Source of the DNA: the human T2T-CHM13v2.0 reference genome, Homo sapiens
Assembly (NCBI RefSeq): GCF_009914755.1
Contig: NC_060932.1
Strand: one strand, 5' to 3'
DNA length: 64,000 bases
The notes beneath the pieces are model-generated. The model had not been told where the DNA came from and ran no database searches. It worked only from the letters and a program-made list of their open reading frames with translations. The translations under genes were made by a program, and so were the position numbers. Position 1 is the first letter of the stretch. The number at the start of each line of letters is the position of its first letter. Shown piece by piece: positions 45,895 through 48,320 of this stretch.

Positions 45895-46178
<284 letters not shown>

Positions 46179-46375
46179 GCACTTTTAAAAAAACAACATA
46201 ACATCTTTCCAGTTATCCTTGATAATATCCTTCTACAATCTGAAATCATTAAATTTCCTCCAAATGTTCATACCTTTCTCTTTACTAGCCCCTTATATAT
46301 TCTATATACATATTGCTCAAAATTTGAATAGCCTGTCCTATAATTCACAATCTATTGTCAAACTATTTCAACACT

Positions 46376-46515
46376 AGAGCTTCCAGGCAGCTGAATGTAT
46401 GGAGTTTCCTGGAGGGTGGCACATCTGGAACGAAACATGGAAACTCCACATCCCTTCCCTCATGTACTTCTTCATCTGTATGCATTATAATATTCTTTCC
46501 TATAAACCAGTAAAT
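46376..46515 (+). mobile_element. MER21-like LTR segment (140 bp) forming the 5' end of the RGS10 retrocopy
   Basis: agagcttccaggcagctgaatgtatggagtttcctggagggtggcac...catggaaactccacatcccttccctcat...cttcatctgtat...taaaccagtaaat resembles the recalled MER21 consensus. Confidence 0.75.
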
Positions 46516-47930
46516 ACATCTATGGCAGTAATAGTAGTTCTGGCAGCAGCCACCAGAGCCTCAAGAGCACAGCCAAATGGGTGGCTTTCCTGGAGAATCT
46601 GCTGGAAGACCTAGAAGGCATGAAAAGATTAAGGAAATTTTTTAAAAAGATATTCAATGAAGAAAATATTTTGTTTTGGCTAGCATGTAAAGATTTCTTT
46701 TTTTAATGCAAGATAAGCAGATGCAAGAAAAGGCAAAGGAGGTCTACATGACCTTTCTTTCCAGTAAGGCCTCGCCACAAGTCAAAAAGAATATATTTTC
46801 ACTCAACAAAAGATCTTTTCACTCAACAAAAAGATCCTGGAAGAACCACATCCTCTGATGTTCCAGGAACTCCAGGACTGGATTTTCAATCTCACGAAGT
46901 ACAACAGCTACAGTAGCTGCTTAAAGTTTGACTAGGTTTGTTGTTGTTTATTTTTTAAGAGACAGGGCCTCACTCTGTCACTCCAGCAGGCATGCAGTGG
47001 CACAATCCTAGCTCACTGCAGCCTGGAACTTCTGGGCTCCAGCCGTCCTTCTGCCTGAGTCTCCTGAGTAGCTAGGACTACAGGTGTTCAACACCATGCT
47101 TGGCTAATTAAAAAAAAAAATTTTTTTTTTGTAGAGACAGGGTCTCACTATGTTGCACAGGCTGGTCTTAAACTCCTGGCCTCAAGTGCTCCTTCCACCC
47201 TGCTTTCTCAAAGGATTACAGGTGTGCGCCACTGTGCCAGCCCTGATTTGCTTTTAAAATACAAGCAAACTGCAAAAGAAGAGAAAGTTCAACCTGATGC
47301 TCAAACTACAGCTAGAAAAGCTTCTAGAATTTTTAACACGAGTTCCCAAAGACTGGCAGATTTATGAAGGAAAGAAAGTAGGCTACGTGTGGTGGCTCAT
47401 GAATACAATCTCAGCGCTTTGGGAGGGAGAGACGGGGAAAATGCTTGAGCCCAGCAGTTTGAGACCAGCTTGGGTAACATAGTGAGACCCTGTCTCTACA
47501 AAAACAAACAAACAAAAAAAATAAATAAATATATATATATATATATTAGCCAGGTGTAGGGGCATGCACCTGTACTCCCAGGTACTTCAGAGGATAAGGT
47601 AGGAGGATCTTTTGAGCCCAGGAGGCCAAGGCTGCAGTGAACTATAGTTGTACCACTGCACTCCAGCCTAAGTTACAGAGTGAGATTCTGTCTCAAAAAT
47701 AAAACAAAAATTAGAAAAATCATAACAAAAAGAAGCAAATAAACTTTCAGGGTTTCTAATTGCCTTGTTATGTACAAAAACTGAATGGGATATGTGTATT
47801 CTCTTCAATGGGATACGTGTATTTTATTAACTGCTTGACCAGTAAGTTTTGCATAATGGCTAATCTTACATTAAAAAAATAGCTTTGAAGTTTCGGTTCA
47901 CAAAACGAATCGATTTCTTCCACACTGGAA
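46516..47930 (+). pseudogene. RGS10P1: RGS10 processed pseudogene, antisense in UBE2W intron 1 and interrupted by two Alus (~46935-47243 -, ~47382-47712 +)
   Basis: Translates as [51 protein letters not shown] (stop TAA 46704-46706), then [35 protein letters not shown] and, after the Alu, [15 protein letters not shown]. This is RGS10 without introns. UTR-like sequence continues to ~47930. The pseudogene symbol is from memory. Confidence 0.92.
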
Positions 47931-48019
47931 AAAATATTTCAACACTGATGCTGTAAAGCAGTTATGACGAATAGGCAGTTACCTATACAACATCAAGACA
48001 TCATAGCTACTATATTGAG

Positions 48020-48215
48020 GTTGTAGGTCGAGTAGCCATTATCTGAACTGCTTGTGACCAGAACTGTTTCGGATTTACTGGTTGAGCATCCCAAATCTAA
48101 AAAGCCAGAATCTGAAATGCTCCAATGAACATTACCTTTGAGTGTCATGTTGCTACTTAAAATGTTTCAGATTTTGGAGCATTTCACATTTCAGATTGGG
48201 GATGCTCAACCTGCG
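48020..48215. mobile_element. Tigger4a/MER46-like DNA transposon fossil
   Basis: ggttgagcatcccaaatct...gaaatgctccaatgaac...ttttggagcatttc...attggggatgctcaacctg, internally palindromic. Confidence 0.75.
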
Positions 48216-48320
48216 TAAGGTCTTAACAGCTTGAGTTAAAAGTGCTTAAAAGTTTTAGCAGTGCTTCCTTTGCTGCTTTCTAATTATAAAACCCATAGTT
48301 CGGCTGGGCGTTGTGGCTCA

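What the first reader, a model, noticed from the sequence alone, without database searches (positions are those of the whole stretch)
46360..47946. Fossil of an LTR-driven chimeric transcript: MER21 first exon spliced to RGS10 exon 2 and retrotransposed as one unit
Seen: (a) a direct repeat aaactatttcaacact (46360-46375) / aaaatatttcaacact (47931-47946), 15 of 16 identical, encloses both the 140-bp LTR-like segment and the whole RGS10 copy, with a short A-run at the 3' junction. (b) The junction is ...taaaccagtaaat|acatctatggcagt... Recalled, not searched: the MER21 consensus continues after ...aataaaccRgtaaaY with GTAAGT, a consensus splice donor. RGS10 isoforms (..PPSD-IHDSDG and MEH-IHDSDG) diverge exactly at AC ATC, the exon 2 start. 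Inference: the copied mRNA began in a MER21 LTR at the RGS10 locus, spliced from the LTR donor to exon 2, and was expressed in germline or early embryo of an ancestral primate, before the two Alus inserted. An in-frame TAA at 46503-46505 makes the LTR exon non-coding, so the isoform would be N-terminally truncated or non-coding. MER21A is known to supply the placental CYP19A1 promoter, so LTR exaptation has a precedent. I do not know of a described MER21-RGS10 isoform.
Basis: partly seen in the sequence, partly recalled or inferred. Interest (0 to 1): 0.88.

Follow-up and report, generated by a model that had tools for sequence, protein, structure and literature searches.

The report
Retrocopy of an LTR-started RGS10 transcript
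An old, dead retrocopy of the RGS10 gene in a UBE2W intron carries, in place of exon 1, a 140-base piece of a retroviral LTR that runs from the LTR's start site to its splice donor, so it preserves an LTR-started RGS10 messenger that is not visible at the human RGS10 gene today.

Summary
A 15-of-16 direct repeat (46360-46375 / 47931-47946) brackets a 140-bp LTR-like piece (46376-46515) joined to an intronless copy of RGS10 exons 2 to 5, which two Alu-like SINEs interrupt.

All four boundaries fit one spliced mRNA copied by L1:
- RGS10 homology starts at the exon-2 acceptor.
- Family homology starts and ends sharply at 46376 and 46515, inside a repeat of roughly 900 bp.
- GT follows the piece's end in 15 of 26 related copies.
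- The piece's first base lies 1 nt from the position that matches the annotated CYP19A1 start in its LTR, about 25-30 nt after a TATA-like box. The literature calls that LTR MER21A.

None lies in chr10:120385001-120585000, while the positive control scores 26 of 30. The 3' end is also odd.

Retrocopy and parent are 83% identical (K2P 0.19), which gives roughly 45-85 Myr.

Verdict: a real, well-preserved fossil of an LTR-initiated chimeric transcript. It is a new example of a known kind, and its source LTR is unlocated.

The parts
46360..46375 (.). 5' copy of the 16-bp target-site duplication, preceded by ...ttgtc (an L1-endonuclease-like TC|AAAC site)
46376..46515 (+). 140-bp piece of a MER21-group LTR. 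It runs from the LTR's presumed transcription start to the base before its GT donor, is roughly the R region, and includes a decayed AATAAA 9 nt before its end. It served as the first exon of the copied mRNA.
46516..46635 (+). RGS10 exon 2 copy (parent chr10:120423023-120422904, minus strand), 86.7% identical
46636..46717 (+). RGS10 exon 3 copy (parent chr10:120421716-120421637), 86.2% identical
46718..46880 (+). RGS10 exon 4 copy (parent chr10:120411246-120411101), 82.2% identical, with a tandem duplication of about 20 nt inside
46881..46939 (+). RGS10 last exon, first part (parent chr10:120395854-120395796)
46940..47242 (-). Later SINE insertion. It is Alu-like by recall of the sequence, and it has many similar copies in the RGS10 locus. 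The parent coordinates on its two sides overlap by 12 nt, as its own target duplication would.
47243..47377 (+). RGS10 last exon, second part (parent chr10:120395807-120395664)
47378..47745 (+). Second later SINE insertion (Alu-like by recall) with an A-rich tail
47746..47929 (+). RGS10 last exon, third part (3' UTR; parent chr10:120395663-120395465). It ends 54 nt before the annotated gene end.
47930..47934 (+). Run of 5 A's: all that could be left of a poly(A) tail. It overlaps the start of the 3' repeat.
47931..47946 (.). 3' copy of the target-site duplication (15 of 16 identical to the 5' copy)

Best explanation
This is an L1-made processed pseudogene of a chimeric RGS10 mRNA.

Inferred: in a germline or early-embryo cell of an ancestor, roughly 45-85 Myr ago, transcription began at the native start site of a MER21-group (ERV-L type) LTR. 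It ran about 140 nt through the LTR's R region and past its AATAAA. The transcript was then spliced from a GT donor that lies just before the LTR's poly(A) site to the normal acceptor of RGS10 exon 2, and exons 3, 4 and the last exon followed.

Shown by anatomy: L1 machinery reverse-transcribed this mRNA into a TC|AAAC target in what is now a UBE2W intron, on the antisense strand, and made a 16-bp duplication. The copy was dead on arrival or soon after. The LTR exon has stops in the RGS10 frame, the copy has since gained indels, and two SINEs were inserted.

Shown: the duplication around both parts, loss of the introns, and the exact fit of the four boundaries.

Inferred: the LTR stood upstream of RGS10 exon 2 and has since been lost from the human locus (or lay further off); the tissue of expression; and the age.
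For: 1. One insertion event. The 15/16 duplication encloses the LTR piece and the RGS10 copy. The chance estimate is about 1e-6.
2. Acceptor. Homology to the parent starts at chr10:120423023, directly after ...tttgctttgcag. Exons 2, 3, 4 and the last exon follow in order without introns.
3. The LTR piece is an internal chunk with sharp ends. Homology to 29 related loci starts at 46374-46378 in 25 of 29 and ends at 46512-46519 in 24 of 29. There is none in 46196-46373 or in 47925-48300. Among themselves the copies run on for about 300-400 bp upstream and about 370 bp downstream.
4. Donor. GT follows the piece's end in 15 of 26 aligned copies. The 4 copies with A at that place all have C before it, which is the pattern CpG decay would leave.
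5. Start site.
   - The annotated CYP19A1 gene start (chr15:49146366) aligns with window 46377, 1 nt from the piece's first base.
   - A conserved TATA-like box lies about 25-30 nt upstream in family copies.
   - Three other copies (L011, L020, L030) lose family homology upstream of that same base.
6. Not a polyadenylated LTR end. Copy L010 runs 4 nt past the piece's end and is then followed by 8 A's. The window piece stops before those 4 nt and has no A-run before RGS10.
7. Precedent. ERV-L LTRs carry a promoter, a start site, a poly(A) site and often a splice donor, and they supply first exons (passages of PMC5538554). CYP19A1 is listed as regulated by MER21A (passages of PMC4419796).
Against: 1. 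No copy of this LTR family lies in chr10:120385001-120585000. That span covers 10 kb downstream of RGS10, the whole gene and 147 kb upstream.
   - The 140-bp query gave no HSP at E<=1e-3 in the first 100 kb.
   - At most 9 of 29, 4 of 30 and 6 of 30 family queries hit any one bin, and the best hits shown for the top bins fall in the SINE flanks of those queries.
   - The CYP19A1 control bin was hit by 26 of 30.
2. No hit is near RGS10. Only 40 of 162 candidates were scored there.
3. The 3' end is atypical. It lies 54 nt before the annotated RGS10 end and 24 nt before that site's ATTAAA, and at most 5 A's remain.
4. 11 of 26 copies do not have GT today.
5. The piece is less like the 26 copies (mean 73.4%) than they are like each other (80.2%), so its subfamily is unsettled.
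6. The CYP19A1 LTR itself lacks most of the piece's counterpart. The start-site match therefore rests on the first 30 nt or so and on the upstream block.
7. There is no transcript evidence. The searches RGS10 + MER21, RGS10 + LTR + alternative promoter, and RGS10 + chimeric transcript + retrotransposon each found 0 papers. Supplementary tables, where such lists usually sit, were closed.
Confidence: 0.8

Rival explanations
1. A spliced chimera whose LTR never stood at the RGS10 locus. The first exon came from a distant LTR through a very long LTR-started transcription unit that ran over upstream genes, or through trans-splicing. L1 then copied the product as in the main reading.
For: No family copy lies in 200 kb around human RGS10, including 147 kb upstream. 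TIAL1 lies upstream on the same strand, so an LTR beyond it would have to skip its exons.
Against: LTR first exons normally splice to the next downstream gene in cis (passages of PMC5538554). The RGS10 region is packed with SINEs, which makes later deletion of an LTR plausible; that is inference. Nothing here points to a particular distant LTR: the best non-self hit is 76% identical and the next are 74-72%.
Confidence: 0.1
2. An L1 template-switch chimera. Reverse transcriptase copied an RGS10 mRNA, then jumped to a short LTR-derived RNA (start site to poly(A) region) and copied that to its 5' end. No splicing between the two took place.
For: The piece is nearly the whole R region, from the start site to 4 nt short of the poly(A) site marked by copy L010. 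Chimeric retrocopies made by template switching are described (passages of PMC5470649).
Against: The jump would have had to leave RGS10 at the first base of exon 2 and land on the base before the family's GT. No A-run and none of the 4 further R bases lie at the junction. Two exact coincidences are needed where splicing needs none.
Confidence: 0.06
3. Two unrelated events. A resident LTR fragment already lay in the UBE2W intron, and a 5'-truncated RGS10 retrocopy later landed beside it.
For: Old LTR fragments are common, and retrocopies are often 5'-truncated (general knowledge).
Against: The duplication brackets both parts rather than the RGS10 part alone. No LTR homology lies upstream of 46374 or after 47925. 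The fragment's ends coincide with the start site and the donor, and the truncation point coincides with an exon start.
Confidence: 0.02
4. LTR-mediated retroposition. An ERV's own reverse transcription picked up RGS10 mRNA by template switching, and integrase inserted the product.
For: The mechanism is described in other animals and in plants (passages of PMC5470649; PMC5131818 seen in a search listing only).
Against: LTR sequence lies on one side only and covers 140 bp. No family homology follows the RGS10 part. The duplication is 16 bp at an A-rich L1-type site, not the 4-6 bp that integrases make (the integrase figure is recalled).
Confidence: 0.01

Closest known systems
LTR-initiated chimeric host transcripts, such as the placental CYP19A1 promoter and first exon in a MER21A LTR, and the ERV-L/MaLR first exons of oocyte and zygote transcripts
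   Same: The start site lies inside the LTR and a donor lies inside the LTR, spliced to the ordinary second exon of a host gene. The start position here matches the annotated CYP19A1 start to within 1 nt. ERV-L LTRs are described as mobile promoter-plus-first-exon platforms (PMC5538554 passages).
   Different: Here the transcript is known only from its retrocopy. No LTR is found at the human parent locus and no RNA evidence was available. The CYP19A1 LTR lacks most of the segment used here.
Processed pseudogenes as fossils of old transcript isoforms (Shemesh et al. [quoted passage not shown]
   Same: An L1-made retrocopy preserves the exon structure, including an alternative first exon, of an mRNA present in the germline at the time of insertion.
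   Different: The preserved first exon is LTR-derived and has no counterpart at the parent gene in the human reference.
'Pseudogene recycling' by ERV-L LTRs (PMC5538554, section of that name, passages read)
   Same: An ERV-L-type LTR and a processed pseudogene lie side by side in the same orientation.
   Different: In recycling, the LTR and the pseudogene arrive separately and the LTR drives the pseudogene in place. Here a promoter-less 140-bp LTR piece arrived within the retrocopy, inside the same target duplication. It lacks the upstream (U3) part, so it cannot be expected to drive anything.
L1 template-switch chimeric retrocopies
   Same: Two unrelated RNA-derived parts lie in the same orientation inside one target duplication.
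   Different: Both sides of the junction sit on splice-site positions, which template switching does not predict.

Membership tests
L1-mediated processed pseudogene | Exons of a multi-exon parent gene joined without introns | tested here: met
   Exons 2, 3, 4 and the last exon of RGS10 are colinear in the window, while in the parent they span chr10:120423023-120395465.
L1-mediated processed pseudogene | Target-site duplication of about 7-20 bp at both ends, at an A-rich L1-endonuclease-type site | tested here: met
   16 bp, 15 of 16 identical, starting AAAC after TC. The endonuclease preference is recalled knowledge.
L1-mediated processed pseudogene | Poly(A) tail at the parent's polyadenylation site | tested here: inconclusive
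   At most 5 A's remain. The copy ends 54 nt before the annotated gene end.
MER21-group LTR (ERV-L type) | Dispersed multi-copy repeat of LTR length that holds the piece | tested here: met
   39 non-self matches scored, 69-80% identical, on many chromosomes, out of 162 candidates. Homology among copies spans about 300-400 bp upstream plus about 370 bp downstream of the piece.
MER21-group LTR (ERV-L type) | Homology to a copy that the literature names MER21 | tested here: met
   26 of 29 family loci align to the CYP19A1 5' LTR at chr15:49146050-49146762. CYP19A1 is listed under MER21A in PMC4419796 (passages). The 140-bp piece itself aligns there only through its first 30 nt or so, by way of the family alignment.
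MER21-group LTR (ERV-L type) | Assignment to a subfamily (A, B or C) by a curated repeat library | not testable with these tools
   No Dfam or Repbase library was on hand. The piece is not in the list of masked stretches of 100 bases or more.
MER21-group LTR (ERV-L type) | LTR pairs flanking ERV-L internal sequence, terminal dinucleotides, short integrase duplication | not tested
   Not needed to date or name the piece. No viral gene is part of this feature.
LTR-initiated chimeric transcript | The transcript starts at the LTR's own start site | tested here: met
   The piece starts 1 nt from the position matching the annotated CYP19A1 start, about 25-30 nt after a TATA-like box. Three other copies begin at the same base.
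LTR-initiated chimeric transcript | A splice donor in the LTR joined to a normal acceptor of the host gene | tested here: met
   GT follows the piece's end in 15 of 26 copies. The RGS10 part starts right after ...tttgctttgcag.
LTR-initiated chimeric transcript | The LTR is present upstream of the host exon on the same strand | tested here: not met
   None in chr10:120385001-120585000 of the human reference. Other species could not be examined.
LTR-initiated chimeric transcript | RNA evidence for the junction | not testable with these tools
   Reads were off. Three literature searches found 0 papers, and supplements were closed.
LTR-mediated retroposition | Retrocopy flanked by LTR sequence on both sides | tested here: not met
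   No family homology in 47925-48300.

The most novel reading that the evidence does not exclude
The retrocopy is the only surviving record in the human genome of a lost regulatory exaptation. A MER21-group LTR once served as an alternative, germline-active promoter and non-coding first exon of RGS10, and it has since been deleted from the parent locus. The pseudogene would then preserve both the isoform and the start site, R region and donor of an LTR copy that no longer exists.
Probability: 0.5. Interest if true: 0.6.

Novelty: new member of a known kind. Interest (0 to 1): 0.5.

Why it matters
Retrocopies sample the germline transcriptome of their time. This one records, base for base, that an ERV-L-type LTR was starting and splicing a host-gene transcript tens of millions of years ago. 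It used the same start position that the placental CYP19A1 promoter uses today.

It also shows that LTR-driven isoforms can come and go. The parent locus in the human reference keeps no trace of the LTR. Such fossils could be mined across the genome to map old LTR promoter use and LTR start and donor sites without RNA data.

For RGS10 biology the weight is small. The isoform would have been non-coding or N-terminally truncated, and the copy is dead.

Tried and rejected
- Source LTR. I looked at and upstream of RGS10 with three sets of queries: the 140-bp piece, 29 family loci with 450-bp flanks, and 30 core queries, over 200 kb. Only SINE noise came back. The same scan found the CYP19A1 LTR (26 of 30), so the scan was sensitive enough.
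- Spurious alignment. A direct BLAST of the piece against the CYP19A1 5' region gave one weak hit (E=0.014) in a shifted register. I rejected it because the alignments through family copies are colinear on both sides.
- Misplaced bases. In alignment A2 MAFFT misplaced the window's first three bases because I had included the non-homologous flank. I repeated it without the flank.
- Other RGS10 retrocopies. None was found: 4 candidates, namely the window itself and 3 parent exons. Closed regions are not shown.
- Annotated exons. No chr8 exon lies over the family copies on chr8 or over the piece.
- Resident LTR plus separate retrocopy, and ERV-mediated retroposition: both rejected on the anatomy.
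- Subfamily naming and SINE dating were not attempted, because no library was on hand and no consensus may be made.
- The 10-nt identity between the parent's 3' UTR end and the target duplication is unexplained. I could not fit it to a priming model.
Full report
**What is there.** Window 46360-47946 lies in a UBE2W intron, on the strand opposite to UBE2W. It reads: a 16-base repeat (46360-46375), a 140-bp non-RGS10 piece (46376-46515), RGS10-derived sequence interrupted by two SINEs (46516-47929), five A's, and the second copy of the repeat (47931-47946). The two repeat copies match at 15 of 16 positions. They are the only two matches in the window with up to 2 mismatches. A composition-based estimate for such a match within 10 nt of the 3' end of the RGS10 homology is about 1e-6. 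The 5' copy begins AAAC after TC, which fits the A-rich targets of L1 endonuclease; that preference is recalled knowledge.

**The RGS10 part.** BLAST against 100 kb around RGS10 (chr10:120395411-120438320, minus strand) maps the window as follows:
- 46516-46634 to chr10:120423023-120422905
- 46636-46717 to 120421716-120421637
- 46718-46878 to 120411246-120411103
- 46881-46939, 47243-47377 and 47750-47929 to the last exon, 120395854-120395465

So four exons that span 27.6 kb in the parent are contiguous here. Two insertions break the last exon (about 46940-47242 and 47378-47745). They have many look-alikes in the RGS10 locus and are partly masked as repeats. I call them Alu from recall of the sequence. 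A whole-genome search with 420 nt of the RGS10 part found only the window itself and three parent exons, so this is the only such retrocopy shown. RefSeq names no RGS10 pseudogene. Over 714 aligned bases the copy is 83.2% identical to the parent (74 transitions, 46 transversions, 10 gap events covering 47 nt, K2P 0.19).

**The junction.** In the parent, the base that aligns with window 46516 is the first base after ...tttgctttgcag, a pyrimidine tract plus AG.

**The 140-bp piece.** It is a repeat. Of 162 candidates in the genome 40 were scored: the window itself and 39 others at 69-80% identity on many chromosomes, none near RGS10.
- With 29 of these loci as a database, homology starts at 46374-46378 in 25 of 29 and ends at 46512-46519 in 24 of 29.
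- There is no family homology in 46196-46373, and a SINE occupies about 45895-46195. Nor is there any in 47925-48300.
- Among themselves the copies stay alike for about 300-400 bp upstream and about 370 bp downstream of the piece.

The piece is thus an internal cut from an element of roughly 900 bp, and both cuts are sharp.

**What the cuts correspond to: the 3' cut.**
- In an alignment of the piece with 26 copies (A1), the two bases after the piece's end are GT in 15, GC in 3, AT in 3, CA in 2, and AC, AA and TT in 1 each.
- The four copies with A there are all preceded by C, as CpG decay would leave. Two of the others are cut by later insertions.
- The piece holds the family's AATAAA (TATAAA in the window) 9 nt before its end.
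- Copy L010 runs 4 nt beyond the piece's end and is then followed by 8 A's. That marks the likely poly(A) site of the LTR.

**What the cuts correspond to: the 5' cut.**
- Family loci align to the 5' end of CYP19A1 (chr15:49146050-49146762, minus strand) in two blocks, for 26 of 29 loci.
- In the clean alignment A3, the annotated CYP19A1 gene start (chr15:49146366) falls on the column of window 46377, one base after the piece's first base.
- A TATA-like box shared by the copies lies about 25-30 nt upstream.
- Three other copies (L011, L020, L030) lose family homology upstream of that same base.

The piece therefore runs from the LTR's start site to the base before a donor-like GT. It is the R region minus its last 4 nt or so.

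**Name and family.** Passages of PMC4419796 list CYP19A1 among genes regulated by MER21A. Its table gives MER21A as 'Primates' (1,921 copies) and MER21C as 'Eutherians' (5,501 copies). Since the family copies align to the CYP19A1 LTR, the piece belongs to the MER21 group. That MER21 is an ERV-L LTR is recalled, not tested. The CYP19A1 copy has only about 92 bp where the family copies have about 260 bp, and so lacks most of the piece's counterpart. The piece may therefore come from another subfamily, which I could not decide without a repeat library. No viral gene is part of the feature.

**Mechanism.** The simplest account of four exact boundaries inside one target duplication has four steps:
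1. Transcription started at the LTR's own start site.
2. The donor just before the LTR's poly(A) site was spliced to RGS10 exon 2.
3. The rest of the mRNA was normal.
4. L1 copied the mRNA into this site.

[quoted passage not shown] That U1 binding at a donor next to a poly(A) signal suppresses cleavage is general knowledge and inference here.

**What speaks against it.**
No copy of the family lies in chr10:120385001-120585000, a span that reaches 147 kb upstream and passes TIAL1 and BAG3.
  - The largest number of queries hitting one bin was 9 of 29, 4 of 30 and 6 of 30.
  - The best hits shown for those bins fall in the queries' SINE flanks.
  - The same scan hit the CYP19A1 LTR with 26 of 30. 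The fetched stretches hold no N.
  - Either the LTR was deleted later, or it lay further away, or the chimera arose otherwise. Deletion is plausible in this SINE-dense region, but that is inference.
- The copy ends 54 nt before the annotated RGS10 end and 24 nt before that site's ATTAAA, and it keeps at most 5 A's.
- The parent's last 3' UTR bases before that end share a 10-nt identical stretch with the target duplication. I cannot explain this.
- The piece is 73.4% identical on average to the 26 copies, while they are 80.2% identical to each other. The copies were picked as best hits, which favours little-decayed ones, so I draw no date from this.

**Age.** K2P of 0.19 between copy and parent, with a recalled neutral rate of about 2.2e-9 per site per year, gives about 43 Myr if both lineages changed equally and about 86 Myr if only the copy changed. 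The coding exons of the parent are constrained, so the truth lies between. The two SINE insertions came later. This sits near or before the base of primates and is compatible with either taxon label in PMC4419796. Only outgroup genomes can settle it.

**Rivals.**
- A distant LTR or trans-splicing (0.10) fits the missing source but has no positive evidence.
- L1 template switching onto a short R-region RNA (0.06) needs two exact coincidences and should leave A's or the last R bases at the junction. It left neither.
- A resident LTR fragment plus a separate retrocopy (0.02) and ERV-mediated retroposition (0.01) are contradicted by the position and length of the duplication and by the lack of LTR homology in the flanks.

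**Novelty.** LTR-started host transcripts are known, and so are retrocopies that act as transcript fossils. The combination with base-exact start and donor, and with no LTR left at the human parent locus, is a neat new example and not a new kind. Three searches for RGS10 with LTR terms found nothing in print. Supplementary tables were closed and could hold such an entry. Interest 0.5.

Noticed in passing
window 47909-47949, and parent chr10:120395465-120395480: The parent's 3' UTR bases just before the retrocopy's end share a 10-nt identical stretch with the target-site duplication. In the window one base of the RGS10-derived copy has since changed. No priming or deletion model that I tried fits it.
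   Followed up: partly
window 47929-47934: The RGS10-derived part ends 54 nt before the annotated gene end and 24 nt before that site's ATTAAA, with at most 5 A's left. This could be an old alternative poly(A) site or an unusual priming event.
   Followed up: partly
L010 (chr8:128730200-128730350, minus strand): This LTR copy has its upstream (U3) part, stops 4 nt after the position of the window piece's end, and is then followed by 8 A's. It looks like a retrocopied LTR transcript end, and it marks the family's poly(A) site.
   Followed up: partly
L011 (chr1:91769620-91769768), L020 (chr1:101061592-101061741), L030 (chr1:199165719-199165861): Three family copies lose family homology upstream of the base that matches window 46376. 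They may be further copies of LTR-started RNAs. L020 is also cut about 13 nt after the piece's end.
   Followed up: partly
L041 (chr15:49146246-49146338): The CYP19A1 5' LTR has about 92 bp where the related copies have about 260 bp, so most of the segment used as exon here has no counterpart there.
   Followed up: no
window 46874-47086: RefSeq lists a 'silencer' fragment that overlaps the exon 4/last-exon part of the retrocopy and the first SINE.
   Followed up: no
window 46376-46515: The LTR piece is not in the annotation's list of masked repeats of 100 bases or more, although it has many relatives in the genome.
   Followed up: no
window about 46796-46836: A tandem duplication of about 20 nt lies inside the exon-4 part of the retrocopy. 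It accounts for most of the 17 gap bases there.
   Followed up: no
window about 48079-48215: Seen by eye: two inverted arms of about 40 nt (...ggttgagcatccc... / ...gggatgctcaacc...) about 100 nt apart, like a small DNA-transposon remnant.
   Followed up: no
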